From IMG/VR virus record IMGVR_UViG_2617271072_000004, positions 1 to 64,000 of that record: 64,000 nt of DNA; one strand, given 5' to 3'. Below the pieces are notes generated by a model. It was not told the origin of the DNA, did not search any database, and saw only the letters and a list, made by a program, of their open reading frames with translations. Below, in pieces: positions 4,043 to 51,133 of the stretch. The stretch is from a virus (taxonomy: Duplodnaviria > Heunggongvirae > Uroviricota > Caudoviricetes). A program made the position numbers and the translations under genes. The stretch's first letter is position 1. Each line of letters begins with the position of its first letter.

Positions 4043-4372
4043 GTGCTTGACACACAGGAATTAGCTCCAGTTGCTATTGCGCTCCTGCTTTCAGTAATTG
4101 GTGGGATAGGCACGTTCCTGATGGATGTCCGAGACGGTCGCCAGTCTGGCAATTTGTTGGGATTGGTTACGGAGATCTTTGTTGCAGTGACAGCTGGCGC
4201 GGTGGCGTACCTATTGGGGCAACATGAGGGCTGGGAGTTATCAATTACGTACTTAATGGTAACGATAGCCAGCAATAACGGTCATGAGGTGATTTCAGGG
4301 ATGAAACGAGTGAATATCGATAGCATTCTGAATGTTCTTACAAGTTTGGTGAAAAAGGGAGGTGGGAAATGA
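4043..4372 (+). CDS. lydA: holin
   Basis: 109 aa, hydrophobic; GTG start after AGGAGGG RBS; symbol assigned by P1 gene order. Confidence 0.55.
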   Translation: MLDTQELAPVAIALLLSVIGGIGTFLMDVRDGRQSGNLLGLVTEIFVAVTAGAVAYLLGQHEGWELSITYLMVTIASNNGHEVISGMKRVNIDSILNVLTSLVKKGGGK

Positions 4373-4812
4373 TTGGCTGGGGTGTATGCGTTCTTGCGTT
4401 AGCCTTAGCCGATCGCTATTTGCTAAAACGCAAGGACATCACGCATTTAGAACTTGGTGATGTGGAAATTAAACCGGGTTTCATCCGGGTGCCGTTCAAA
4501 TACCGGTCTAAATTCCCGTTTTTGCGCGGCGCAACGGTCAGATATTGGATCCGCGATGTTCAGAAGCCGACGACTGTGATTGAAGGCGAACAACGTTGTC
4601 TGACGTCGGCTGAACAGGGCGAAAACAGTGAATGGTTGTACATACCCACTGAATATATGGGTAAAGGAGAACGGCTGTGGCATTTCAACGTCATGGTTAC
4701 GCATGGCGACTCGTTCATTAACCCGTTGTATCGGATTTTCCCTGTTACTCAGCAAATCCGCAGAAGTTACGTAATAAATCTCGCACAGGATGTGTCAGAT
4801 GACGAAAAATAA
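4369..4812 (+). CDS. lydB: antiholin
   Basis: 147 aa, start overlaps lydA stop; symbol assigned by P1 gene order. Confidence 0.55.
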   Translation: MIGWGVCVLALALADRYLLKRKDITHLELGDVEIKPGFIRVPFKYRSKFPFLRGATVRYWIRDVQKPTTVIEGEQRCLTSAEQGENSEWLYIPTEYMGKGERLWHFNVMVTHGDSFINPLYRIFPVTQQIRRSYVINLAQDVSDDEK

Positions 4813-40466: not shown

Positions 40467-41117
40467 TCAGCTTTCGTTGGCATGGTCCACCTCATGCTTT
40501 TCAGCCACCAGCGGCAATAAAGCCCTGGCCATCTTATGAACCAATAGTGCATCAATAATGCCAAGCGTATGCCCCGGCTTAATGTTTAATGCCGCCTCAA
40601 GGTGACACCTTTCCAGGTCACTTTTCTCGGCTTGTTTATGATGATCTGGTGTAATAACGTCGCCCAAAACACGGCTAATTCTTTCTCGTAATTGCTGGGT
40701 GCCAGCACACTTGATCGCTGTATCGTGGAGACGGTTAACCAGTTCGCGATAAACATGCGGCTTAATGCGGATACGTTCACCGGTGACGCCCTTTCCTGGC
40801 GCTGGCACCGAACTATCCGGAATATCCGGATAGTTGCCAGCCTCGTAAGCTACCCGCAGCCAGTGCATGAATGTTTCAGTGGACACACAACCACAGTCCA
40901 CATCGATTTTTCCGCGTTGCTGTTCCAGCCAATGCTCAAAATTCAATCTACACGTATTACTTTCATGTTGCTCTTTTTGTCTCAAGGCCAGCATCTGCTG
41001 GGCTATTTCCAATACTTCATCTGCCGTATATCCAGCACCGTGACCATACATTTCGATACGGGAAATAATCTCTGATATGCGCTCTTCAGTGATTCTGGTC
41101 ATTTCTTTTTGCGCCAT
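40467..41117 (-). CDS. hypothetical protein
   Basis: 216-aa ORF. Confidence 0.5.
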   Translation of the reverse strand: MAQKEMTRITEERISEIISRIEMYGHGAGYTADEVLEIAQQMLALRQKEQHESNTCRLNFEHWLEQQRGKIDVDCGCVSTETFMHWLRVAYEAGNYPDIPDSSVPAPGKGVTGERIRIKPHVYRELVNRLHDTAIKCAGTQQLRERISRVLGDVITPDHHKQAEKSDLERCHLEAALNIKPGHTLGIIDALLVHKMARALLPLVAEKHEVDHANES

Positions 41118-41473
41118 TTCTTTTCACATTCCTTAGTCCATTCTTCAATGTTCATTTTGGCAATATCAGTCATTCCATCACCTAAGAAATACTTTTTCCG
41201 GTATGTCTTGCACTTAAACCACACTACAACAGCCACCAGCCAGAAAATAAAAGGCCATACAGCAATACCAACGACAGCCGCGATAAAGCCCAATAGCCAT
41301 AAATGAAGCTCTCCAACTTCTGTTTCCGGCAATATTCTTAAAGAATTAAACAGCAGGATGAACGAATGGTCGTATGCATTGGCAGTATAAGACATGCAAT
41401 CCATATAATTAAAGTCATAGCCTGCGGCTGCCGCCCATAATGGGCGGTCAAGAAAATGTTTTAGTGTCATCAT
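41099..41473 (-). CDS. hypothetical membrane protein
   Basis: 124 aa with hydrophobic segment. Confidence 0.45.
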   Translation of the reverse strand: MMTLKHFLDRPLWAAAAGYDFNYMDCMSYTANAYDHSFILLFNSLRILPETEVGELHLWLLGFIAAVVGIAVWPFIFWLVAVVVWFKCKTYRKKYFLGDGMTDIAKMNIEEWTKECEKKWRKKK

Positions 41474-41479
41474 ATAAAT

Positions 41480-41869
41480 TTAAGGTTCAGACCAGTTATC
41501 TTCAATAGCAATGCTTAATCTTTGTAGCCATTCTGCTAATTTCAGCATTGCTTCTCTTTCGCTTAAACCACGAGGAAAATCATCAAGCGAAATTGTTGGC
41601 TTGAATCCCCCGCAATTATCCATTTCAACTGTCAGATTTTGTTCCAGCACGGTATTTCTTACGCGGCTATTGTGCCGGAGCAAATATACTGAGCGTGATT
41701 TATTGGTTTTGTGGTCTAGCTTATATTCGGTAAGTATCATCTGGCTTTTGCCATGATTATTACCTCTCCACATACTTACCTCACTTAATAAAACAACTCC
41801 ATGCGTAGTTGATGATTTTTTCCCACGTAATATAAATCTGCACTCCGGCAGTAAAACCAAAGCCAACAA
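41480..41869 (-). CDS. hypothetical protein
   Basis: 129-aa ORF. Confidence 0.4.
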   Translation of the reverse strand: MLALVLLPECRFILRGKKSSTTHGVVLLSEVSMWRGNNHGKSQMILTEYKLDHKTNKSRSVYLLRHNSRVRNTVLEQNLTVEMDNCGGFKPTISLDDFPRGLSEREAMLKLAEWLQRLSIAIEDNWSEP

Positions 41870-41952
41870 TTGCTGAAAAAATCAAAAACATTTACTTTTG
41901 ACATTATAAATTTTCTCTCGGTGTCGTAGGTGATAGCACCATAATTGATAAT

Positions 41953-42189
41953 TTAGTGAGTTAGCAGTTCCAGTTCATTTTTGATGATTTCCGCATGAGC
42001 ATCATCGTTATCAACACTTAGCTCGTTTAATGCTTCTCGCACTACATCAACTTCTTCAGGCTGAAAGAAGTCGTCGCGGTAATCACCAAATAGAACCGAA
42101 ACCAGCCTGCCACCAGCAACATCAAGATTGGCGCTAACAGGTGGCTCTTTGCCATCCTCAAATTCGACTACAAAAGTTAATTTTCCCAT
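41953..42189 (-). CDS. hypothetical small acidic protein
   Basis: 78-aa ORF. Confidence 0.4.
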   Translation of the reverse strand: MGKLTFVVEFEDGKEPPVSANLDVAGGRLVSVLFGDYRDDFFQPEEVDVVREALNELSVDNDDAHAEIIKNELELLTH

Positions 42190-42265
42190 CGTTACCCCCA
42201 GAAGATAAAAATAGCGGCAATCGCCATAGCTACGCCTACAATCGCAAATGCTTCAGGCCAGCTTA

Positions 42266-43465
42266 TTACCTCACCTCCAGTCTCCATACCGCCTGACCAA
42301 TCCGGCTGGCATGGGTATCTTTGGATACTGTTCCATCTTTAGCCAGCTCCATAAGAATTTTGCGCAAATCTGCCGACCGCCATTCTTCATCAGGAAATTC
42401 CTTCTCCATTGCCAACCGCAGATTCCAGGTTGCCATCCTGAATGGATATTCCCCGCCGAGAGCTTTATCTTGCAGGGCAGCCCGGGAACGCATCACCTGC
42501 AAAACCTTCTCTTTTACATCCATCATTTCGCCTCCTGCGGCGGTTCTGGTAGCGGCATCCAGAACAAGGCGTTCCCTACCCTGAAGCATGGCAGCGTGGC
42601 AGGCATCCTCTACGCCTTTAACTGCATCTGCGCAGTAGTTATAGCGATTGCATTCCACTAACTTCTGCTTGAGATTTTCAATTGCTTGCGCGACATCATC
42701 CTGTATTTCCGGAACTGGCGGAACGGCTGTCTGCTGCTCTCGAACGTCATTAGTCGCTATCGGTTCTGCTGCCAACTGACTGGCATATTTGTTAATGGTA
42801 ACGATAAGCTCTTGCTCAGCCTCATCCAGACAATCACCGATACCTCGCCTGTCACCGTCAAAATCATCGAAATCGGCACGAATCCTGGCAACCTTCAGGA
42901 TTGCGGACAACACCTCACTAGGAATTGCCGGATAGTTGGTTGACGTTTCCGCGATTTCCCGAAAATTATTGGTTGACGAATTCTTGTTTTCCCGAAAGTT
43001 TCCGGACTGAAGCATGGCGGCGCGGCAGGCGTTAAGCGCGTTTTGCACGCGTTTAGCGTTCTGTACTTCGTATTTAGGTGCGGCTGCCAATGCCCATAGC
43101 CAACCAATTTCATAGCTATCAGCTTTTGATAGAGCACATTCCATTTCCAGTGTTATTTTCTTAGGTACGAGTTGCCAATCATCTGGCACTACCGGTGCTG
43201 GCAGCTCGCGATACAGCGAGATTACACGACGCGGGTCCGCATATTTATCTGGCGGACACTGAAATATCTCACCGAAACCATACTTCCTGACATCGCGCAG
43301 TTCCTCTTCATCAGTCCATGCCACCGGTTCTGCTTCCAGCGATGCCAGAGCAATCCGTGCCAGCTCTTCCGCTTCTTCTGCTGGCAGTACAACGTTGCTA
43401 CCAGGTCCGTATGTTTCGCGCCACTGCTTGATTGTCAGCAGTCGCTCTTTGGTAATAGTGATCAT
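42266..43465 (-). CDS. hypothetical protein
   Basis: 399-aa ORF. Confidence 0.5.
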   Translation of the reverse strand: MITITKERLLTIKQWRETYGPGSNVVLPAEEAEELARIALASLEAEPVAWTDEEELRDVRKYGFGEIFQCPPDKYADPRRVISLYRELPAPVVPDDWQLVPKKITLEMECALSKADSYEIGWLWALAAAPKYEVQNAKRVQNALNACRAAMLQSGNFRENKNSSTNNFREIAETSTNYPAIPSEVLSAILKVARIRADFDDFDGDRRGIGDCLDEAEQELIVTINKYASQLAAEPIATNDVREQQTAVPPVPEIQDDVAQAIENLKQKLVECNRYNYCADAVKGVEDACHAAMLQGRERLVLDAATRTAAGGEMMDVKEKVLQVMRSRAALQDKALGGEYPFRMATWNLRLAMEKEFPDEEWRSADLRKILMELAKDGTVSKDTHASRIGQAVWRLEVR

Positions 43466-44166
43466 GCCGCGTTTCCTTCTTTCTTATTAACAATTACACC
43501 GTCATATATTTCATTAAGGTGCCCTCTCAACTCCATGCGCCTTAATGCAGATAACATGTAATCGCATTCAACCTGCTTATTTCCAGTAAATGGCTTATCG
43601 TCAGGATTACCCCAACAGCAATTACCCTTGGGCCACCCATGTACTTTCCGTACTCTTCCGTTAACAACGTGAAGTAATCCCCAGCCAGGTGGTAAATCCT
43701 CAATTGAAATAATTCCCGGCTCACTAATAAAGAATCGCCAGTCGCCCATGCCAAGTGAGGGATTTTTACGGAAACGCTTTTTTCTATCTGCCAACAAGTC
43801 AGCACGAGAACACTTCGCCTCTATCAGGCATGATGCTGAATTTCTGAACCCCATAGCATCTGGCTGTTCTCCGGTACTGGTTACAGCTATAAAGCGGTCA
43901 TGAAAACAAACCTTGAACCCGTTGCGCTTAAGGAACTTGTACGCAATTTGACAGAGTTCGCGGTGTGTTAACGCCATATCACTCTCCTTTAGTGCGCAAA
44001 TGGTTTTTCCAGCGGTTTTGCGCCGCGCTGGGCTTTTGCAAAAACCACAATCCATCATCCCGTAATATTTCATCAACCCCATCCGTCGGTTGCTGAGTCT
44101 CACCCACTGCCAGACGCCAGGAGCGTTTCTACGAACTAACAGAATCTTTGCTTTACGGTTTTTCAT
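43462..44166 (-). CDS. hypothetical protein, possible nuclease-like fold
   Basis: 234-aa ORF; true start may be internal (MALTHRELCQ). Confidence 0.45.
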   Translation of the reverse strand: MKNRKAKILLVRRNAPGVWQWVRLSNRRMGLMKYYGMMDCGFCKSPARRKTAGKTICALKESDMALTHRELCQIAYKFLKRNGFKVCFHDRFIAVTSTGEQPDAMGFRNSASCLIEAKCSRADLLADRKKRFRKNPSLGMGDWRFFISEPGIISIEDLPPGWGLLHVVNGRVRKVHGWPKGNCCWGNPDDKPFTGNKQVECDYMLSALRRMELRGHLNEIYDGVIVNKKEGNAA

Positions 44167-44512
44167 CTTACAGCGTACCCTTTCTTCCGCCTGTTCTGTG
44201 ACGCAGTAGGCTTACGCTTTGCGGCAAAAGCCACCTGACCAAATGGATGGAGTACCGCTATCTTATGGTTGCTAATAACCAGCTCCACCACACGCACAGG
44301 TCGCTGTAAAAAAAAGTCGTTTTGCCTTACGGTTTTTCATCGCTTTGCTCTCCTGCGTCTCTTTGCTGCTCGTCGTGCCGCTGCAATACCGGTATGGCGG
44401 CGCTTTGGTGCCGGGATGATGTTGTCAGCCATCAGGACATGTGGCTTTGCAATTAGCGCAGAAGCCCAAAAACGAGTCGGGTACGGTAACAAGCCGATAC
44501 ATGCCACACGCA

Positions 44513-45211
44513 CTACTCACCTCCGTTGATGCGAATGCCAGCGGCACGGGAATCATTCCATCGCTTTACTTCTTCACGAATTACGTCAATGCATTCTTTC
44601 GAATCCATTAGGTAATCTTCATCAAAAAGCCTTTCCTGTTCGTTTTCTATCGCAACAATGATTGCTTCAACTAACTTTTGTGCCTGAGAACCACTTTCTA
44701 ACTCTGCAATGCGCTTCTCTGCGGCTTCCAGCTTCTCGCGCATATCGTCAACGTACTCGACCAGAGATCCGCCAGCAGGAATTTCGCACTCCTCGACCAG
44801 TTGGAAGTAGATATCAGCTGCGGCCCGTGTGTTGCTATGCCTAGCGTCGCCCATCTCACCTTCACGAAGAGCATCGCGTTCGGCGGTAAGATTGGCTATT
44901 TTGCTGTCTTTGCCTTCCAGCTCAACGCGAAGCCTCCCTACCGTTAGCGCAATTTCCTCGTTCTCCTGGTCACGGCGTTTGATGTATTGCTGGTTTCTTT
45001 CCCGTTCATCCAGCAGCGCCAAGACGGTAGCCGGATTGGCTGCGGCGATGAATTCAGCATCACGAGATTCGTTTTCACTGAACACCATAGCTATTTGCTC
45101 ATGCTTTATGCCGTCAGTGGAGTAAATCTCATCGTCGAATTCAACAGCCCACTTACCTTTCGTAGCCTTCTCCGCCGCCTCGCGCAGTTCTTGATAGTTA
45201 ATTTTGCTCAC
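44513..45211 (-). CDS. Ead/Ea22-like protein
   Basis: GTG start after AGGAGG; SKINYQELREAAEKATKGKW and FIAAANPATVLALLDE typical of Ead/Ea22. Confidence 0.6.
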   Translation of the reverse strand: MSKINYQELREAAEKATKGKWAVEFDDEIYSTDGIKHEQIAMVFSENESRDAEFIAAANPATVLALLDERERNQQYIKRRDQENEEIALTVGRLRVELEGKDSKIANLTAERDALREGEMGDARHSNTRAAADIYFQLVEECEIPAGGSLVEYVDDMREKLEAAEKRIAELESGSQAQKLVEAIIVAIENEQERLFDEDYLMDSKECIDVIREEVKRWNDSRAAGIRINGGE

Positions 45212-45275
45212 TGGTTGCCTCCTTTGCGAAGCTGGGCAGCAAAGTCAACTAACCACTCAGTCATTTCAACCTTCC

Positions 45276-45920
45276 CTACCAGGTCTGAACCAGGGTGCAT
45301 ACAGCAATCACTCTGCGCCGCTTTGAAATCCTTATACTCATATTCTTGGGCCACCAGATTTTTGCAGCTTCTATAGCAGCATCCACCCCCTGCGCCCGAA
45401 CTTCAGCCAGGAAAGCGTCGGTGGCTGGAATTTGCGGCATCCCTCCGTCTGTTGCGCAGATATACGCATCAGATATTTCATCCTGCTGGCCATCAAACAC
45501 GTAGCAACAGCCCCTGATAAACAGCTTCATTGAGGCATTCTCCACTGCCAGCGCCGTGCGATTACCATCCAGCTCTGCAATGCGCTGTTTTGCGGCATCC
45601 AGTTCAATCGACAATTTTTCCAACTGCTCTTGATGCTTCTTGTATTCCTGATATGCGTGCCAAGACTGACCTTTGCGCACACTATCAGTGATATCAGTAA
45701 TCTGTTCTGGTGTTAGCGTGGTCAGTGGCTGTGATGGGAAAATAAGCACTTTCCCGGAATCCCAATCAAAACCAGCGTGAATTGACTGAACCTCAACTGA
45801 AGGTGTTGAACCAATGCTGCCAGGCGAATGAACAACGATTGTTACATCCATATCGCGACGATGGCTGTGGTTGTTGGACAAAATACGATTCACCAACTCA
45901 GAAAATTTGGAAAATTTCAT
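45276..45920 (-). CDS. hypothetical protein sharing a C-terminal module with 46204-46905
   Basis: PATDAFLAEVRAQGV vs PATDAFLAEIRAEARNEGI. Confidence 0.5.
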   Translation of the reverse strand: MKFSKFSELVNRILSNNHSHRRDMDVTIVVHSPGSIGSTPSVEVQSIHAGFDWDSGKVLIFPSQPLTTLTPEQITDITDSVRKGQSWHAYQEYKKHQEQLEKLSIELDAAKQRIAELDGNRTALAVENASMKLFIRGCCYVFDGQQDEISDAYICATDGGMPQIPATDAFLAEVRAQGVDAAIEAAKIWWPKNMSIRISKRRRVIAVCTLVQTW

Positions 45921-46240
45921 GCTGATTCCCCTTTCTCTGCTCTCTCCTGTCGGAACATCACTATCATCAGGTCGCCTTTTGTCGCTATCCTGGCTGTTGT
46001 ACCTGGTTCAATGCGGCTAAGCTCAAATGCGTCATAGAACGCTTCTAATGCCTTCTGGCGTAGTTCCTGTTTGCGCCGTTTTTTCCACTGTTTTAGGAAA
46101 ATGGAACCCAGCCATCGCCATGTACGGGACATGATGTAAAGCCAACCGAGAAGTGCCAGACCGGTATTTAGGAGCGTATCGATCGTTATTGTCGTGTCGA
46201 TATTCACTGGCTGCTTCCTTTGCGAATCTGTTCCGCCCAT
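45917..46240 (-). CDS. hypothetical membrane protein
   Basis: 107-aa ORF with hydrophobic stretch. Confidence 0.4.
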   Translation of the reverse strand: MGGTDSQRKQPVNIDTTITIDTLLNTGLALLGWLYIMSRTWRWLGSIFLKQWKKRRKQELRQKALEAFYDAFELSRIEPGTTARIATKGDLMIVMFRQERAEKGESA

Positions 46241-46905
46241 TCTTCAAGGGATTTCTCCGCATATTCACCAGACAGGCCATCAATCGGATGCGCTTCATTA
46301 GCCAACTCTTCTTTCGCTGACAAAATCATGCGTGTAACGTCGAAAACTTCACGCAAAGACTTATTGATAAATCCGTGATTGAACGCAGCAGCAAGACGGC
46401 TGGCGGTATAGTTAATCCCCTCGTTGCGTGCTTCCGCACGAATTTCAGCCAGAAAAGCATCGGTAGCTGGAGTTTCGCTGTGGTGTAGGGCATCGTTGAT
46501 AATCATTGCAGCAACACCAGCCTGCCCTGCATCCGTGACCGACACATGCTCAAGAGTTACGGCCATTGCGTGTTTCAGCCCGGCGTTCTCTGCCACCAGC
46601 GCCGCGAGCTTAGTCTCAAGCGGTGCTATTCGGCACATAGCATCAATATTTGTGTCCTCCAGGCGCTTAATTTCACCAAGTAGCGCCAGTGCAACCTTTG
46701 GGTTGAATGCGGCAACATAACGAGCGTTGTTCTCTGCGTTTTTCAGCCCATCAAAGCCGGTCCATTTGATAACATCTTCACATCGTTTATCACCGGGCGT
46801 ATGCACCGCATACGTACCAGTACCCGGCGAAATAAATGCGACCCATTCGCCCTGTGTTGCCTGTTTTGCTATCTCACGCAGTGCCCGGTAATTAATTTTG
46901 CTCAC
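46204..46905 (-). CDS. Ead/Ea22-like protein
   Basis: GTG start after GGAGG giving SKINYRALREIAKQATQGEW; ORF track extends to 46941. Confidence 0.55.
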   Translation of the reverse strand: MSKINYRALREIAKQATQGEWVAFISPGTGTYAVHTPGDKRCEDVIKWTGFDGLKNAENNARYVAAFNPKVALALLGEIKRLEDTNIDAMCRIAPLETKLAALVAENAGLKHAMAVTLEHVSVTDAGQAGVAAMIINDALHHSETPATDAFLAEIRAEARNEGINYTASRLAAAFNHGFINKSLREVFDVTRMILSAKEELANEAHPIDGLSGEYAEKSLEEWAEQIRKGSSQ

Positions 46906-47134
46906 TGGCTGCCTCCTTTGCGGAGTTGCGCTTCGATGCACGAAAAAAAAGACTCCCGAGTATGACTGTTAAGAGCTGGTGCGAACGCCGCGTTAAGAAC
47001 GGCAGCATCACAGCCGTCATCAATATAGAGCGCAATTTTTTTTCTCCAGGCGCGCTTTGGCTTCCTGCAACTGCATACCCCGGCACGCACGCGGGATATA
47101 ATCAGCAATTTGAGCGATAGCTTTTTCGTTCTGT

Positions 47135-47338
47135 TTAAACATGCTTCACCTCGATAGGCTTGATGGTGTCTAACAGCAGTCGACGGCGCGTATTTTCTGC
47201 AAAGTGGCGGCGTCCGGTATCTTTGTGGTAAAACTCATTTTTGCCGACGACCCACATCCGCTCTGTTTGGTGCAGTTTTTTTACCTTCGGGCCATCTTTG
47301 GTGATCACGGTACCGGTATGGGTTTTTACGATTGTCAT
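47135..47338 (-). CDS. hypothetical small protein
   Basis: 67-aa ORF. Confidence 0.35.
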   Translation of the reverse strand: MTIVKTHTGTVITKDGPKVKKLHQTERMWVVGKNEFYHKDTGRRHFAENTRRRLLLDTIKPIEVKHV

Positions 47339-48213
47339 TCCACTACCTCTTCGAATTTCAACTCCAATTGGTCACCCCAGATTTCACATGATTCGGAACA
47401 CGAACCAGTATCAAACCGCTTGGCCAGCACCATCGCCTGATACAAATTTCTGTAGTCACTGTCGGCATACATTCTGGCAATCCCGTCAAGCGTCAGGTGG
47501 CCACGGTACATAACGTCTTTACCTGTTCTGCGATGACCATCCCTGACGTGTTTGCCTGTAACCAGTTCATTAAAAACCCGCATCAGACCTGGTTCGTCTT
47601 TACATGCAAGCCCCAGCTTTTGCGTTGACTTTTTGATGCAAAAAACACAGTTCCCGAGGTGCTCCGGGATTTGCAAATCAAAAGGTTGTTTTCGCCACCA
47701 CCGGATAACATCCGACTTATCAAAATCTGACAGTTCGGCAAGATACCGGACGCCCGGTTTCGGTTTCAGCCTACGGGGTTCGTCCGCACGAATACCCAGC
47801 CATGTGATGTAATTCCCTCGCCCAAAATGGTCATCGCAATATTTCGTGAAAGGGGTGAGTTTTAGCCTTTCAGTACAGAACGCGCCGCCGATGTATGGCG
47901 TACCGTACTTTTTAACCATGTCCATAAACGGTTTAAGCACCGGCATTCGCGTCTGAATATCCTTTGGTTCCCATTCCGTATAACCATTTGGCTTCCCAAT
48001 TTCTGGATTTATATCGACCTGCAACACCGTTAGCGGTACGTTCCAGAACTTCACAACCTCACGAATAAAGCGATACGTCAGAGGATGTTCACAGCCGGTA
48101 TCCATAAAAATGAAATGGACGCTAGCGCCAGCTTTTCGCTGTGCTTCCATCAGATGAACGAGATAAGCCGATGTTCGTCCACCTGAAAAGCTGACGACTT
48201 GATGCATACTCAC
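47335..48213 (-). CDS. PAPS reductase-like PP-loop protein
   Basis: N-terminal VVSFSGGRTSAYL PP-loop motif; Cys cluster near C-terminus. Confidence 0.7.
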   Translation of the reverse strand: MSMHQVVSFSGGRTSAYLVHLMEAQRKAGASVHFIFMDTGCEHPLTYRFIREVVKFWNVPLTVLQVDINPEIGKPNGYTEWEPKDIQTRMPVLKPFMDMVKKYGTPYIGGAFCTERLKLTPFTKYCDDHFGRGNYITWLGIRADEPRRLKPKPGVRYLAELSDFDKSDVIRWWRKQPFDLQIPEHLGNCVFCIKKSTQKLGLACKDEPGLMRVFNELVTGKHVRDGHRRTGKDVMYRGHLTLDGIARMYADSDYRNLYQAMVLAKRFDTGSCSESCEIWGDQLELKFEEVVE

Positions 48214-48216
48214 GGT

Positions 48217-48795
48217 TTATTCCTGAATGCGCTTAAACTCGATTACCCATACCAACGGGTTAGATAGCCAGTTATCCTGCCCGTAAATACTGCGCCAGAT
48301 ATCACCAAAACCAACGCGATAAACAGCTTCAGATGGCGTAATCTTGTACGTCGCCGGAGTTGCGCCTTCTGCTTTAGCATCTGCCTCGCTCATGTCATGC
48401 AGCCGTTCCACACGCACGTCGGTAATTTCCAGAAGAATGCGCGATGCCCAGCGCGGCATGTGAATTGATGGCGTCCACTTTTCTGATACTGGTTTATTAC
48501 AAACCTCGACCGGAACCCGGTGCGTTTGTTCTGTCCAGGAGTTACGCACGCTTGCGCGATAAACCAGCGTTGCGACGTCCGTCGCTTTGCCATGTACCCG
48601 GTAGGTTTCGCGAACCCAAATACGATCGCCCGGTTGACCATATGGACAATGCTTGGCAAGCAACTCTGCGGCCACTGCCCGTCCATAGAATTTTTCTTCA
48701 ACAATCCTGCGAGTCTGTGTTTTATTCCCGCCAAGAATTGCCCGGACCATCTCATCGTTAAAAATCATGCCGCGCTCTTTCACTTCGCCTTTCAT
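48217..48795 (-). CDS. ASCH/PUA-like domain protein
   Basis: MIFNDEMVRAILGGNKTQTRR...GQPGDRIWVRETY pattern. Confidence 0.45.
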   Translation of the reverse strand: MKGEVKERGMIFNDEMVRAILGGNKTQTRRIVEEKFYGRAVAAELLAKHCPYGQPGDRIWVRETYRVHGKATDVATLVYRASVRNSWTEQTHRVPVEVCNKPVSEKWTPSIHMPRWASRILLEITDVRVERLHDMSEADAKAEGATPATYKITPSEAVYRVGFGDIWRSIYGQDNWLSNPLVWVIEFKRIQE

Positions 48796-48973
48796 ACATC
48801 CCCCTTACCCATGTGCGACGATGCCGCCAAAAGTGATAGAGAACAGCCAGAAATAGATCGCGGCCATAATGATTTTGAATGCCGTGTTCATATTTTCAGC
48901 TCCTGTGATTGATTGGATACATGCCGCGCCTTGCGGCATGTTTTAATTTTCACTTTCTCTGTTTTAAAAATCA

Positions 48974-48990
48974 AGATTTATTAGAGCAAT
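48974..48990 (-). promoter_or_regulatory. C1 operator-like 17-mer
   Basis: Reverse complement ATTGCTCTAATAAATCT, 16 of 17. Confidence 0.6.
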
Positions 48991-49496
48991 TATTGTTGAT
49001 GAAGAAGTGCATTTTCATATTCCCTGACCATTAACGTAAGTACGCCGTGACTCCTGAAAACACGCGCCACTTCAATCTTATCTTCCAGCGCGAACGCAAT
49101 TTTACTTAGACCAATTTTCTTCAGGAGATCAATCTTTGCAGGGCCGTCATTTCTGTCATCGGTGGCAGGACGCATAGATAGCAAAGGCTCAGCCCCATTT
49201 GTTACGTGCTTACGCAGCCAGGCTCGTGTTTTATCCCTTGCGATCTCACAGCGCCCGGTTACAAACCAGACCGTGTAAACGTTAAATAACTGGCGCACCA
49301 TATCAATAACCGGAGTGATGGGAGTATCGGTGTCACAGGCGAGATTAAACTCGTTCCAGTCCTTTGTTAATGCACCTTTACCTGGTGGCGGAAGCAAATG
49401 CAGTCTGTCTTCAGTTGCCTCTGATATTGTTCCATCAATATCGACTATGACGATATACGGACGTTCCTGGTGTGCGTGTTTATTGAAAATACTCAA
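48990..49496 (-). CDS. HAD-superfamily phosphatase
   Basis: IVIVDIDGTI (DxDGT motif I); 168 aa. Confidence 0.6.
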   Translation of the reverse strand: MSIFNKHAHQERPYIVIVDIDGTISEATEDRLHLLPPPGKGALTKDWNEFNLACDTDTPITPVIDMVRQLFNVYTVWFVTGRCEIARDKTRAWLRKHVTNGAEPLLSMRPATDDRNDGPAKIDLLKKIGLSKIAFALEDKIEVARVFRSHGVLTLMVREYENALLHQQ

Positions 49497-49569
49497 ATGC
49501 CCTCCTCATTGGACGAAAAAAAATGCTGGTGGGCGCACTCCACCAGCATTAAAAGTGACGCTGTAACTA

Positions 49570-50832
49570 TCAGCGGACGTAAATAGTGCCGCCGTTCTCT
49601 TTTTCCCATGCATCGCTACGTGCATAGCAAACATCGAGAAGTCTTCTTGCCGCTGTTTCCTCTAAACCCAATTCGACAACCAACTGCTCATGACGGCGGG
49701 TAACCACATCAAACAGGGTATGCAACCCTTTAGTTGCCAGATCATCAATGAATTCCGGTTCGAACGGCAGCTCTGCATCTGCCAACATAACCTCTTGCGC
49801 CCACTCAACTCGACGGACCAATTCCGGGCGGCGGCTTTCCATCTCTTTACAGATCAATTCATGGAAGAACTCTACCCAACCTTCCGGCTGGAACTCGCGG
49901 AAAATTGCCAACGGCTGGAAGTTTGGCATCAACCATTCGTTGATTCGGATATCAATGGCATAGCCCATGTCGCAGCAGAACTGATAAGCAAAGTCCAGCT
50001 TAGAAACGATATAAGGACGCTCGTTATTGAACTCTTTAGGCGATGAGATCCCATAAGCCAGGAGGCGCGGGAAGAAGGAGATTTGCCCTAACGTCGGATG
50101 AAGTTTGCTTGCAGGGAAACGGCGCTCAGTAATGCCATACATTTCCTTCTTGAGCGTCGCAAATTTGGCATTCTCATTAACCAGCGCGGTAACCTCTGCT
50201 TTTTTATTAGCAAATGCCACGCGCGCTTCGCTTGCATCTTTAATAGTTTTTTTGAGCTGTTGGTTAAGGTCGGCGACCTGCTTACGCAGTTCCTGTCGCT
50301 CGCTTTTAGCTTTGTTATAGCGTTTCTCAAGGTTAAAAGGATCAAGTTTCATGATCTCTTTATATTGAGATTTTAGCGTTGAAATCTGTGAGTTCCGCAG
50401 TTCAACCATCGCGGTCATTTCATTGAGTTTTGTTTCCAGCTCAATGCTTATACGTTCGGCATTATCAGCACGCTGGTTGGCGTCATGCGTCGCATCGTCG
50501 ATCGCGTCCTGTTGCTGGCGTTTCAAATGTTCAATTTGTAGCTGAAGCTCTTCAATTTCTTTACCCTTCAGACCGAGATCCAACTGCATATTTTCAGCTG
50601 CATCTACCAGGGAGTTATGGCTATCAGCTTCTGCGTTATAAACATCAATAAGCTGTGCGTGAAGCATCTCCGCTGACTGAACCGCATTATCAAAAAAACG
50701 CGCTGTGAGGTCATCACAACTAACGCGGCGTTGCGCGGCCCGGATGTTCTGGATAATGGCCGGGATACCGGCATTCAGGACGTCAGGGATAGATACATTT
50801 TCGATTGATTGGTTTTGTGCTGAAGTGATCAT
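49570..50832 (-). CDS. hypothetical coiled-coil protein
   Basis: 420 aa, heptad-rich middle region. Confidence 0.5.
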   Translation of the reverse strand: MITSAQNQSIENVSIPDVLNAGIPAIIQNIRAAQRRVSCDDLTARFFDNAVQSAEMLHAQLIDVYNAEADSHNSLVDAAENMQLDLGLKGKEIEELQLQIEHLKRQQQDAIDDATHDANQRADNAERISIELETKLNEMTAMVELRNSQISTLKSQYKEIMKLDPFNLEKRYNKAKSERQELRKQVADLNQQLKKTIKDASEARVAFANKKAEVTALVNENAKFATLKKEMYGITERRFPASKLHPTLGQISFFPRLLAYGISSPKEFNNERPYIVSKLDFAYQFCCDMGYAIDIRINEWLMPNFQPLAIFREFQPEGWVEFFHELICKEMESRRPELVRRVEWAQEVMLADAELPFEPEFIDDLATKGLHTLFDVVTRRHEQLVVELGLEETAARRLLDVCYARSDAWEKENGGTIYVR

Positions 50833-50833
50833 T

Positions 50834-51103
50834 TCAAAGTTCCGTATTAGCTTGTGCTTCGGTCATTTTTCCTAAGTATGAAGGAGGAAGGACTACGCAA
50901 TTTGTATCCAGTCCCTCACCTATGGCAGCCTGTAAAATTCTGGCTAAGGTGAGTCTCTTGTTGCGATACCTGGTGATGACATGCCTGATACCGCCGGTCG
51001 GCGTAACAAAGGCGATCAGCCAGTAGTGATATTTCCGTCGGAATGGCCACATAGTGCACCTTGTAGATTGCTCTAATAAAAAAACGTGATGAGTGTACAT
51101 CAC
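50834..51103 (-). CDS. hypothetical small protein
   Basis: 89-aa ORF downstream of operator pair. Confidence 0.4.
   Translation of the reverse strand: MMYTHHVFLLEQSTRCTMWPFRRKYHYWLIAFVTPTGGIRHVITRYRNKRLTLARILQAAIGEGLDTNCVVLPPSYLGKMTEAQANTEL
51066..51082 (+). promoter_or_regulatory. C1 operator-like 17-mer
   Basis: ATTGCTCTAATAAAAAA. Confidence 0.55.
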
Positions 51104-51116
51104 GTTTTAAAAATAT

Positions 51117-51133
51117 GGAATTATTAGAGCAAT
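51117..51133 (-). promoter_or_regulatory. C1 operator-like 17-mer, inverted partner of 51066-51082
   Basis: Contains reverse complement of ATTGCTCTAATAA; coordinates +/-1 because the printed line is one base short. Confidence 0.5.

What the first reader, a model, noticed from the sequence alone, without database searches (positions are those of the whole stretch)
47335..49496. PAPS-reductase-like, ASCH-like and HAD phosphatase genes in one operon
A PP-loop enzyme (SGGRTS), a PUA/ASCH-like protein and a HAD phosphatase are co-transcribed downstream of a C1 operator. The combination suggests nucleotide or nucleic-acid modification chemistry. It appears to be backbone, but its function is unassigned as far as I know.
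Basis: inference. Interest (0 to 1): 0.45.

Follow-up and report, generated by a model that had tools for sequence, protein, structure and literature searches.

The report
Known P1 and lambda accessory genes juxtaposed
The three genes are real and their domain calls are right, but they are already-known phage genes of P1 and lambda (pap, a pmgT-family gene, ninC) placed side by side by recombination in a P1-like plasmid prophage, not a conserved three-enzyme operon.

Summary
The window is a P1-like phage-plasmid. All three ORFs exist on the minus strand, and all three domain calls hold.

- **48990-49496:** P1 Pap, a kinase-less HAD/PNKP-type phosphatase.
- **48217-48795:** a PmgT-family protein. 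It has an ASCH fold and an invariant YqfB-type GxKxxTxR catalytic motif.
- **47335-48213:** an ortholog of lambda NinC (79% aa identity). It is a PP-loop (SGGRTS) enzyme with five family-invariant cysteines, and its best defence-library match is SspD.

The "one operon, backbone" reading fails on three counts.

- **Operator position:** the C1 operator (Op88, 48974-48990) lies between pap and the other two genes. A strong terminator precedes pap.
- **Not backbone:** ninC is in about 10% of pap-bearing plasmids. It arrived with the 3' end of the ASCH gene from a non-P1 prophage.
- **No conserved pairing:** only 1 of 80 diverse PmgT loci has NinC, and 6 have Pap.

NinC relatives are fused to Dam or MT-A70 DNA methyltransferases. 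In a vibriophage, a two-gene block containing a NinC-Dam fusion (55% identical) gave escape from the host Dnd phosphorothioate defence.

Most likely these are independent, early-expressed, non-essential accessory or counter-defence genes in a variable C1-controlled cargo operon. This is ordinary, with one modest lead: lambda NinC may act against phosphorothioate-based defence.

The parts
49522..49550 (-). Intrinsic-terminator-like hairpin between pmgS (49570-50832) and pap.
   Evidence: 11-bp stem with 6 G-C pairs, followed by TTTTTT. The sequence was read.
48990..49496 (-). pap: HAD-superfamily phosphatase of the PNKP phosphatase-domain type. It has a TTG start, 168 aa, and no kinase domain. 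It is P1 backbone.
   Evidence: Pfam HAD_PNKP E 4.5e-12. phrog_415 'polynucleotide kinase' E 1.7e-57. The enclosing stretch 48704-50000 is about 96% nt identical to P1, covering pap and pmgS. DIDGT at residues 19-23. Non-essential in P1.
48974..48990 (-). C1 repressor operator, equivalent to P1 Op88/OpmgT. It overlaps the last base of the pap stop codon.
   Evidence: one mismatch to the 17-mer consensus. P1 and P7 annotate an operator at the same place relative to pap.
48946..48989 (-). Position of the predicted sigma-70 promoters P1pmgT/P2pmgT. These are overlapped by the operator.
   Evidence: Mapped by me from the P1 annotation onto the 96%-identical window sequence. They are predictions in the P1 record, not tested here.
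48805..48890 (-). Small hydrophobic ORF of 28 aa, MNTAFKIIMAAIYFWLFSITFGGIVAHG, preceded by AGGAG.
   Evidence: Read. A mechanical 44-aa ORF spans 48805-48939. The SJ46 record lists a 'membrane protein' among the features under the match to this region. No family hit was found.
48217..48795 (-). PmgT-family ASCH-fold protein of 192 aa. It is 84% identical to P7 Upf86.8 and 43% identical to P1 PmgT.
   Evidence: Identities. phrog_874 E 1.8e-83. AlphaFold pLDDT 86. Foldseek top hits are all ASCH proteins. The family has 42,792 representative clusters at 50% identity.
48706..48729 (-). Codons 23-30 of the ASCH gene, G-N-K-T-Q-T-R-R. This is the ASCH octapeptide GxKxxTxR of the YqfB 'GKTR' type.
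   Evidence: K25, T28, R29 and R30 are invariant and G23 is at least 90% conserved across 61 family members. Roles of the YqfB residues K21/T24/R26/E74. Definition of the octapeptide subgroups. hhalign places E143 opposite YqfB E74 (local alignment only, probability 21%).
48386..48471 (-). Conserved 86-bp stretch inside the ASCH gene where the P7-like 5' part and the ninC-linked 3' part overlap. It is the likely crossover site.
   Evidence: P7 matches 48361-50000 at 97%. Non-P1 contigs L093/L094 match 47332-48471 at 97.6%. P1 matches only 48386-48471 (86%) and 48704-50000.
47335..48213 (-). ninC ortholog: a PAPS-reductase-like PP-loop protein of 292 aa from GTG 48213, or 290 aa from ATG 48207.
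48175..48192 (-). Codons for the PP-loop motif S-G-G-R-T-S.
   Evidence: Read. The motif is invariant in 40 diverse family members.
47135..47338 (-). 67-aa ORF overlapping the ninC stop codon by 4 nt (phrog_1226, unknown function). It travels with ninC.
   Evidence: It is present next to NinC in 41 of 82 NinC loci, including Stx phages. It shows no similarity to lambda NinD.

Best explanation
The interval is a junction in a P1-like phage-plasmid, not a functional three-gene unit.

**Layout.**
- pap is the last gene of the preceding backbone block pmgR-pmgS-pap. It encodes a stand-alone PNKP-type HAD phosphatase.
- Immediately after its stop codon sits the C1 operator Op88 with its promoters.
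- These head a C1-repressed early operon that is a variable cargo slot in P1-like elements.
- In this element the slot opens with a small membrane-peptide ORF, a PmgT-family ASCH protein, a lambda-type ninC and a 67-aa ORF. Lambdoid ea-type genes follow.

**Origin.**
- ninC and the 3' third of the ASCH gene were imported together from a non-P1 prophage.
- The likely route was homologous recombination within a conserved stretch of the ASCH gene.

**Mechanism of each protein (inferred).**
- **NinC** is an SspD/DndC-like adenine-nucleotide alpha-hydrolase with an intact PP-loop. Its conserved cysteines (one Cys, a CxxC pair, and a Cys-rich flexible tail) could hold an Fe-S cluster or relay sulfur. 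It probably acts on DNA-backbone sulfur (phosphorothioate) chemistry, or interferes with it, to let the phage escape Dnd/Ssp-type defence. A two-gene vibriophage block containing a NinC-Dam fusion had that effect.
- **The ASCH protein** keeps the YqfB-type Lys/Thr/Arg/Glu catalytic set. It is probably an amidohydrolase for an N4-acyl-cytosine-like group on a nucleoside, tRNA or DNA.
- **Pap** probably removes 3'-phosphates from nucleic-acid ends or nucleotides.

All three are dispensable accessory functions and act independently.
For: **Architecture (shown):**
- Operator position. The P1 and P7 annotations show the same layout.
- Terminator upstream of pap.
- Mosaic breakpoints.
- ninC is in 77 plasmids against 655 for pap.
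- A ninC deletion scar is present in phage 813R1.
- The cargo genes are Ead/Ea22 and DUF4752 types, as in lambdoid early-left regions.

**No conserved linkage (shown):**

**NinC:**
- 79% identical to lambda NinC.
- SGGRTS and five cysteines are invariant.
- Best defence-library hit is SspD at 1.5e-13; BrxP and DndC give weak hits.
- The fold is nearest to the Fe-S APS reductase, followed by PAPS reductases and the [4Fe-4S] sulfur transferases LarE, NcsA and TtuA.
- Independent fusions exist to Dam PF05869 and MT-A70 PF05063.
- Transfer of vibriophage genes p0018 (the PAPS-Dam fusion) and p0019 into a sensitive phage gave escape from host Dnd (bioRxiv 10.1101/2021.05.05.442762). The window NinC is 55% identical to the PAPS domain of that protein.
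- PAPS-reductase-domain proteins are the sulfur-inserting enzymes of the Dnd, Ssp and BREX type 4 systems (PMC12914056).

**ASCH:**

**Pap:**

**Non-essentiality:** PMC10695390.
Against: - No biochemical or genetic test exists for lambda-type NinC, for any PmgT-family protein, or for Pap.
- In the vibriophage experiment two genes were moved together (the PAPS-Dam fusion and a DUF6475 gene). The PAPS domain alone was therefore not proven sufficient.
- One study saw no Dnd-related host-range effect for its PAPS-carrying vibriophages (PMC10945359).
- Known phosphorothioate synthesis needs a partner NTPase (DndD, SspC or BrxC). None lies next to ninC here.
- Lambda carries ninC, and no unusual bulk DNA modification is known for lambda DNA (my own knowledge, not tested here). 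Bulk modification of phage DNA in ordinary hosts is therefore unlikely.
- The match to SspD covers only the N-terminal half of NinC.
- In the 98-99% identical NinC clade, the ASCH gene is upstream in all 11 loci with the same few-base spacing, across three ASCH alleles. That could mean functional pairing rather than shared descent.
Confidence: 0.6

Rival explanations
1. First reader's reading. The PP-loop enzyme, the ASCH protein and the HAD phosphatase form one co-transcribed pathway that builds or removes a nucleic-acid or nucleotide modification. The PP-loop enzyme would activate, the ASCH protein would bind the base, and the phosphatase would trim.
For: - All three domain calls are right.
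- All three families act on nucleic acids or nucleotides.
- The genes lie within 2.2 kb on one strand.
Against: - Op88 and its promoters lie between pap and the other two genes.
- pap is conserved in 655 plasmids, while ninC is in 77.
- P1 itself has pap and pmgT but no ninC.
- Lambda, Stx, Chi, Riemerella and Vibrio phages have NinC homologs with neither partner nearby.
- Only 1 of 80 PmgT loci has NinC and 6 have Pap.
Confidence: 0.05
2. The ASCH gene and ninC are a functional two-gene module. One possibility is that the ASCH protein reads or edits the base or substrate that NinC acts on. Pap would be unrelated.
For: - In all 11 viral loci whose NinC is 98-99% identical to this one, a PmgT-family gene lies directly upstream at the same spacing. 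This holds across three different ASCH alleles and includes 4 loci with no pap gene detected.
- The stop codon of the ASCH gene lies 3 nt from the ninC GTG start, or 9 nt from the ATG.
- Both families occur near or fused to PF05869 Dam methyltransferases.
Against: - The adjacency is confined to one shallow clade. It is explained by descent plus recombination inside the ASCH gene.
- NinC at 92-95% identity (Stx phages) and 79% identity (lambda), and more distant homologs, lack the ASCH gene nearby.
- 79 of 80 diverse ASCH loci lack NinC.
- Phage 813R1 has lost ninC but kept the ASCH gene.
Confidence: 0.12
3. NinC is a genuine assimilatory PAPS reductase (CysH-like auxiliary metabolic gene) that boosts host sulfur assimilation during infection, as phage 'PAPS reductases' are commonly annotated.
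For: - The Pfam PAPS_reduct domain is above threshold.
- The nearest solved folds are APS/PAPS reductases.
- The virome literature treats such genes as cysH auxiliary metabolic genes (PMC13369170).
Against: - The NCBIfam CysH equivalog scores 22.1 bits against a cut-off of 154.
- The Pfam match covers only residues 6-72 of NinC, against positions 3-66 of a 175-position model.
- Fold TM-scores are only 0.4-0.5 over about 180 residues.
- The C-terminus reads DTGSCSESCEIWG. From memory, the CysH catalytic motif is ECGLH, and that motif is not present.
- NinC scores better against SspD.
- NinC relatives are fused to DNA methyltransferases.
- A block containing a NinC-Dam relative gives escape from Dnd.
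Confidence: 0.07
4. These are virion morphogenesis genes, as the historical P1 names imply (pmg = putative morphogenetic gene).
For: P1 and P7 records annotate pmgT, pmgS and their neighbours as putative morphogenetic functions.
Against: - pmgT and pap score as non-essential for P1 plaque formation by CRISPRi.
- The operon is headed by a C1 operator and sigma-70 promoters, not a late promoter.
- The folds are enzymatic: ASCH, PP-loop and HAD.
Confidence: 0.03

Closest known systems
Bacteriophage lambda NinC (nin region, 290 aa, function unknown)
   Same: - 79% aa identity over 285 residues.
- Same length, same SGGRTS motif, and the same five conserved cysteines.
- Non-essential.
   Different: - Genomic position differs. 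In lambda it lies after ninB in the nin region.
- Here it lies after a PmgT-family gene in the C1-controlled Op88 operon of a P1-like element.
- In Stx phages it lies in the early-left region.
Vibriophage 44E38.1 / 41E34.2 p0018, the 'PAPS-Dam' protein of the reported anti-Dnd gene pair (Piel et al., bioRxiv 10.1101/2021.05.05.442762)
   Same: The N-terminal domain of about 285 aa is 55% identical to the window NinC over 97% of its length. It has the same PP-loop and the same cysteines.
   Different: - The vibriophage protein carries a C-terminal PF05869 Dam methyltransferase domain.
- It was tested together with an adjacent DUF6475 gene.
- The window NinC has neither the Dam domain nor that neighbour.
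- No phenotype is known for the window NinC.
SspD / DndC / BrxP, the PAPS-reductase-domain enzymes of DNA phosphorothioation systems
   Same: - PP-loop adenine-nucleotide alpha-hydrolase core.
- Best PADLOC match is SspD at 1.5e-13; DndC and BrxP give weaker hits.
- The fold neighbours handle sulfur.
   Different: - The match covers only the N-terminal half of NinC.
- The DndC equivalog scores 17 bits against a cut-off of 290.
- There is no adjacent DndD/SspC/BrxC-type NTPase and no cysteine desulfurase gene.
- It is phage-borne rather than part of a host defence island.
E. coli YqfB and other ASCH-domain N4-acetylcytidine amidohydrolases
   Same: - ASCH beta-barrel fold.
- YqfB-type GxKxxTxR octapeptide with invariant Lys, Thr and Arg.
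- A conserved Glu aligned to the catalytic E74.
- The C-terminal strand VIEFK is shared with YqfB (read).
   Different: - 192 aa against 103 aa, with two insertions.
- 12-14% identity in the structural alignment.
- Below the Pfam ASCH threshold.
- It belongs to a very large, largely phage-borne family, phrog_874.
- Substrate unknown.
P1 PmgT and P7 Upf86.8 (first gene of the Op88 / 'hea' operon)
   Same: - Same family (phrog_874) and the same position directly after Op88.
- The first 20 residues are identical to P1 PmgT.
- 84% identical to P7 Upf86.8.
   Different: - P1 PmgT is 309 aa with extra inserts and a C-terminal extension.
- The window allele is a chimera whose 3' third came in with ninC.
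Phosphatase domain of polynucleotide kinase-phosphatases (T4 Pnkp type; Pnkp1, PDB 4xrp)
   Same: - Pfam HAD_PNKP above threshold.
- Weak sequence match to the Pnkp1 phosphatase region.
- DxDxT motif present.
   Different: - No kinase domain (168 aa in total).
- No ligase or other repair partner was seen among the neighbouring genes examined.
- Named 'acid phosphatase' in P1 by weak similarity only.

Membership tests
ASCH superfamily (PF04266) | PUA-like beta-barrel ASCH fold. | tested here: met
   AlphaFold model with pLDDT 86. The top 13 Foldseek PDB hits are all ASCH proteins, with TM-score normalised to the target of about 0.7 for YqfB and PH0355.
ASCH superfamily (PF04266) | Octapeptide motif GxKxx(T/E)xR. 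| tested here: met
   G23-N-K25-T-Q-T28-R-R30. K25, T28 and R30 are invariant in 61 members. Motif definition.
ASCH superfamily (PF04266) | Score above the Pfam gathering threshold. | tested here: not met
   15.3 bits against 21.2. 34 of 61 family members give sub-threshold hits, the best at E 1e-3.
YqfB-type ac4C amidohydrolase | Catalytic Lys-Thr-Glu triad plus an Arg oxyanion hole. | tested here: inconclusive
   Lys, Thr and Arg are present in the motif. E143 aligns to YqfB E74 only in a short hhalign local match with probability 21%.
YqfB-type ac4C amidohydrolase | Hydrolysis of N4-acetylcytidine, either free or in tRNA. | not testable with these tools
   Needs an enzyme assay.
Assimilatory PAPS reductase CysH | Full-length match to the CysH equivalog model. 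| tested here: not met
   NF002537 scores 22.1 bits against a cut-off of 154, covering residues 5-81 only.
Assimilatory PAPS reductase CysH | C-terminal catalytic Cys in an ECGLH-type motif (motif recalled from memory). | tested here: not met
   The C-terminus reads DTGSCSESCEIWG. It holds conserved cysteines but not that motif.
PAPS_reduct domain superfamily (PF01507) | Pfam gathering threshold. | tested here: met
DndC (DNA phosphorothioation) | TIGR03183 equivalog score. | tested here: not met
   17 bits against a cut-off of 290.4. PADLOC DndC E 3e-4.
SspD (Ssp phosphorothioation) | Match to the SspD profile over its full length. | tested here: inconclusive
   PADLOC SspD E 1.5e-13, but the match covers only NinC residues 3-146 against profile positions 2-121 of 277.
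Dnd/Ssp/BREX-4 phosphorothioate synthesis modules | Adjacent partner NTPase (DndD, SspC or BrxC). | tested here: not met
   None of the neighbours scanned between 39.6 and 51.8 kb gave such a domain hit. The requirement is stated.
Vibriophage anti-Dnd gene pair (p0018/p0019) | Homologous PAPS-type domain. | tested here: met
   55% identity over 97% of NinC.
Vibriophage anti-Dnd gene pair (p0018/p0019) | Fused Dam domain and an adjacent DUF6475 gene. | tested here: not met
   The window NinC ends at residue 292 with no Dam domain. The upstream gene is the ASCH gene, not DUF6475.
Vibriophage anti-Dnd gene pair (p0018/p0019) | Confers escape from Dnd restriction. | not testable with these tools
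   Needs plating on hosts with and without Dnd.
HAD phosphatase, PNKP phosphatase-domain type (PF25109) | Pfam threshold and the DxDxT nucleophile motif. | tested here: met
   46.7 bits against 27.6. D19-I-D21-G-T23.
Bifunctional polynucleotide kinase-phosphatase | P-loop 5'-kinase domain. | tested here: not met
   The protein is 168 aa and only the phosphatase region matches.
P1 C1-controlled operon | 17-bp asymmetric C1 operator overlapping the promoter upstream of the genes. | tested here: met
   Met for the ASCH and ninC genes (48974-48990). Not met for pap, which lies upstream of this operator and downstream of the Op86 pair at 51067-51133 and of a terminator.

The most novel reading that the evidence does not exclude
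Lambda-type NinC is a stand-alone, phage-borne SspD/DndC-like enzyme. It writes, mimics or blocks DNA phosphorothioation so that temperate coliphages and P1-like plasmids escape Dnd/Ssp-type defence. The C1-operator-controlled Op88 operon of P1-like elements would then be an exchangeable counter-defence island. Its first gene would be a phage ASCH amidohydrolase acting on an acylated cytosine in host tRNA or DNA.
Probability: 0.3. Interest if true: 0.55.

Novelty: new member of a known kind. Interest (0 to 1): 0.28.

Why it matters
As posed, the finding matters little. The genes are known, the arrangement is 99.7% identical to already sequenced plasmids, and the supposed three-enzyme pathway dissolves under comparison.

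Three points have some value.

- **lambda ninC.** It is one of the long-unexplained genes of the best-studied phage. It can now be tied to a testable function, because it is 55% identical to the PAPS domain in a vibriophage gene block that gave escape from Dnd, and its best match in the PADLOC defence-protein library is the phosphorothioation enzyme SspD.
- **"Phage cysH / PAPS reductase" labels.** For this family the label used as an auxiliary metabolic gene in virome studies is probably wrong.
- **The PmgT family.** It is very large (over 40,000 clusters at 50% identity) and is an ASCH protein with a complete YqfB-type catalytic motif. This points to nucleic-acid deacylation as a common early function of temperate phages.

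Tried and rejected
**Sequence and profile searches**
- Searches of the ASCH protein against PDB, with the single sequence and with the family profile, found nothing. Only fold comparison worked.
- hhalign of the family against YqfB gave just a 30-residue local match.
- The search for homologous proteins with the ASCH protein returned only near-identical E. coli copies and no domain information.

**Locus retrieval**
- The search for related loci with NinC alone, and again with the diverse alignment A3, returned only close relatives of 79-99% identity. A broad test of what neighbours distant NinC homologs have therefore rests on four annotated phages plus lambda and one Stx phage.

**Libraries and papers not available**
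- The afdb50 fold library was unavailable.
- The published version of Piel et al. was not held, so only the preprint was read.

**Ideas considered and rejected**
- That the 67-aa ORF is lambda NinD. No similarity was found.
- That the gene upstream of NinC in Stx phages, or in vibriophage 41E34.2, is an ASCH relative. There were no hits, and the vibriophage gene is DUF6475.
- That the hits of the NinC profile in PmgT loci were PAPS reductases. They were Dam methyltransferases, picked up through the fused domain in the alignment.


Full report
**What the window is.** The 3 kb around the finding matches P1-family phages and plasmids. pmgS, pap and the intergenic region (48704-50000) are 96-98% identical to P1, P7, SJ46 and others. 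The window holds 11 matches to the 17-bp C1 operator consensus, against 0.34 expected by chance. It is therefore a P1-like (Punavirus) phage-plasmid. The nearest records are IncY E. coli plasmids at 99.7% identity.

**The observation.**
- Three intact minus-strand ORFs sit at the stated coordinates.
- The 292-aa ORF (47335-48213) contains SFSGGRTSAY and passes the Pfam PAPS_reduct threshold, although only over residues 6-72.
- The 168-aa ORF (48990-49496) passes Pfam HAD_PNKP, matches phage polynucleotide-kinase PHROGs, and has the DxDxT nucleophile motif DIDGT.
- The 192-aa ORF (48217-48795) has no Pfam hit above threshold; ASCH scores 15.3 bits against a cut-off of 21.2.
- I collected its family, which spans 42,792 representative clusters at E <= 0.001, and aligned 61 members.
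- The AlphaFold model has a mean pLDDT of 86.
- The Foldseek PDB search returned only ASCH proteins at the top. These include the ac4C amidohydrolase YqfB (9kyf), 3s9x, PH0355 (2z0t), EF3133 (1t62) and the Zymomonas ASCH protein.

**Identity of the genes.** All three are known phage genes.
- The HAD protein is P1/P7 Pap.
- The ASCH protein belongs to phrog_874 together with P1 PmgT (43% identity, with indels) and P7 Upf86.8 (84% identity).
- The PP-loop protein is an ortholog of lambda NinC: 79% identity over 285 residues.
- Its DNA is 92% identical to a gene in the early-left region of Stx-converting phages.
- CRISPRi mapping scored pap and pmgT as non-essential in P1. ninC was non-essential in lambda once polarity on Q was corrected (PMC10695390).

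**Transcription units.**
- The operator ATTGCTCTAATAAATCT occupies 48974-48990 on the minus strand. It begins on the last base of the pap stop codon.
- P1 and P7 annotate Op88/OpmgT (called Op(hea) in P7) at this position, with predicted promoters overlapping it.
- pap is therefore upstream of this operator. Only the ASCH gene and ninC are downstream.
- pap follows pmgS after a strong terminator-like hairpin at 49550-49522.
- The operators that precede pap are the Op86 pair at 51067-51133.
- The claim "one operon downstream of a C1 operator" is thus wrong for pap and right for the other two genes.
- A 28-aa hydrophobic ORF with a good Shine-Dalgarno sequence lies between the operator and the ASCH gene.

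**Backbone or cargo.**
- Megablast of pap finds 655 PLSDB plasmids, 590 of them near full length. ninC is found in 77 (64 near full length), and the whole ASCH-ninC-orf67 block in 14.
- No Punavirus record in the phage collection carries ninC.
- Local alignments show the mosaic structure.
  - P1 matches 48704-50000.
  - P7 matches 48361-50000.
  - Two non-P1 prophage contigs (L093, L094) match 47332-48471 at 97.6%. That span is ninC plus the last 85 codons of the ASCH gene.
  - Stx phages match 46856-48212 at 92%.
- The two halves of the ASCH gene overlap in a conserved 86-bp stretch (48386-48471), which is the likely crossover point.
- Phage vB_EcoM-813R1 keeps only the first ~68 nt and last ~20 nt of ninC, a deletion scar.
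- Downstream, the Op88 operon carries about 8.5 kb of lambdoid early-left type genes: two Ead/Ea22 genes and a DUF4752 gene. In P1 the same operon holds only pmgT-pmgU-pmgV.
- The slot behind Op88 is therefore a variable cargo region. Only pap is backbone.

**Is the combination conserved?**
- Among 80 diverse PmgT-family loci from viral contigs, with flanks of up to 6 kb, 1 carries a NinC homolog and 6 carry Pap. All 6 with Pap are P1-like (profile search).
- Among 82 NinC loci, 11 have a PmgT-family gene directly upstream. All 11 belong to the clade whose NinC is 98-99% identical to this one. Seven of them are P1-like.
- Lambda, Stx phages, Chi, Riemerella phage RAP44 and two Vibrio phages have NinC homologs without any ASCH gene nearby.
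- The adjacency is best read as one block spread by recombination, not as independent evidence of a shared pathway.
- I keep a functional ASCH-NinC pair as a minority rival. The spacing is preserved across three ASCH alleles, including 4 loci where no pap was found.

**What NinC probably does.**
- The family keeps SGGRTS and five invariant cysteines: C111, C187-x-x-C190, C270 and C274.
- It fails the CysH equivalog (22 bits against 154) and the DndC equivalog (17 bits against 290).
- Its best match among defence-system models is SspD (1.5e-13, N-terminal half only), with weaker hits to BrxP and DndC.
- Family members are fused C-terminally to Dam (PF05869) and, in another protein, N-terminally to MT-A70 (PF05063). 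These are two unrelated adenine-methyltransferase families.
- One such fusion is vibriophage 44E38.1 p0018. It was moved together with the adjacent p0019 into a sensitive phage, and the recombinants escaped the host Dnd system. The authors call the gene pair an anti-Dnd system.
- Later papers repeat the idea for phage PAPS reductases in general.
- PAPS-reductase-domain proteins are the sulfur-inserting enzymes of the Dnd, Ssp and BREX type 4 systems, but they work with a partner NTPase. ninC lacks such a partner here.
- My inference is that NinC is a stand-alone SspD/DndC-like enzyme used as counter-defence against phosphorothioate-based immunity. How it works is open: it could co-opt host components, mimic the mark, or interfere.
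- The common "cysH metabolic gene" label is poorly supported for this family.

**What the ASCH protein probably does.**
- Residues G23-N-K25-T-Q-T28-R-R30 fit the ASCH octapeptide GxKxxTxR of the YqfB ("GKTR") subgroup.
- K25, T28, R29 and R30 are invariant in the family.
- In YqfB the equivalent K21, T24 and R26 are essential, and E74 is the acid.
- A short profile alignment puts the near-invariant E143 opposite E74.
- A 2026 preprint reports that 19 diverse ASCH proteins remove ac4C from tRNA.
- I infer a hydrolase acting on an N4-acyl-cytosine-like group. The substrate is unknown.
- Dam-family methyltransferase genes lie just upstream of PmgT-family genes in 13 of 80 loci. This is a mild hint of a DNA-modification or anti-restriction neighbourhood.

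**Pap.** It is a kinase-less PNKP-type HAD phosphatase. It is conserved in P1-like elements and non-essential. A 3'-phosphatase activity on nucleic-acid ends or nucleotides is the default inference. Nothing links it to the other two genes.

**Verdict.**
- The interpretation as a co-transcribed backbone pathway is not supported.
- The region is an ordinary mosaic junction between the P1 backbone and a variable C1-controlled cargo operon, built from known genes.
- The useful residue is a testable function for lambda NinC and for the very large PmgT/ASCH family.

Noticed in passing
window 47036-47043: A T8 run on the plus strand (A8 on the coding strand) replaces the A7 run seen in plasmid pZ1323CEC0010-3 and in Stx phage phi346. 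It frameshifts the 79-aa gene that follows the 67-aa ORF, splitting it into 40-aa and 68-aa ORFs. It is either a pseudogene or a homopolymer sequencing error.
   Followed up: partly
window 48805-48890 (- strand): An unannotated 28-aa hydrophobic ORF with an AGGAG ribosome-binding site is the first ORF after the Op88 operator. The sequence is conserved in P1, where no CDS is annotated. The SJ46 record lists a 'membrane protein' under the match to this region.
   Followed up: no
window 48919-48941: A 10-bp G+C-rich hairpin overlaps the start of the mechanical 44-aa ORF. It scores as a terminator only for plus-strand transcription, and no plus-strand gene is nearby. It may be a leader structure of the Op88 transcript.
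   Followed up: no
window 49522-49550 (- strand): A strong intrinsic-terminator-like hairpin lies between pmgS and pap. This leaves pap without an obvious promoter of its own.
   Followed up: no
L002 (phage vB_EcoM-813R1) about 4335-4419; window 47335-47355 and 48145-48213: This P1-like phage retains only the two ends of ninC, joined together. That is a deletion scar, and it shows ninC is gained and lost within the lineage. In the same record the PmgT-like gene is labelled '3'-phosphatase, 5'-polynucleotide kinase' and pap is labelled 'PmgS', so the product names appear shifted by one gene.
   Followed up: partly
window 40467-46941 (- strand): The Op88 operon continues for about 8 kb with lambdoid early-left type cargo. 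It includes two Ead/Ea22 paralogs (46204-46941 and 44513-45211), DUF4752 (45917-46240) and several ORFs with no family hit, among them a 399-aa ORF at 42266-43465.
   Followed up: partly
P0348 (483 aa); P0280, P0297, P0379; L167 3501-4940: NinC-family domains are fused to two unrelated DNA adenine-methyltransferase families: MT-A70 (PF05063) at the N-terminus and Dam (PF05869) at the C-terminus.
   Followed up: partly
L016, L028-L033, L040, L067, L071, L074, L085 (about 0.2-2 kb upstream of the PmgT-family gene): PF05869 Dam methyltransferase genes occur in 13 of 80 diverse viral PmgT-family loci. In 11 of them the gene lies on the same strand just upstream of the PmgT-family gene. Some are fused to a C5-cytosine methylase.
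   Followed up: partly
L168 (phage Chi) 3477-4834: In Chi the NinC homolog is followed, with a 4-nt overlap, by a gene annotated nucleoside 2-deoxyribosyltransferase. Its Pfam matches are DUF7768 above threshold and Nuc_deoxyrib_tr below threshold. A gene annotated as thymidylate synthase complementing protein lies about 2 kb upstream. This is a nucleotide-metabolism context unlike that of lambda or P1.
   Followed up: no
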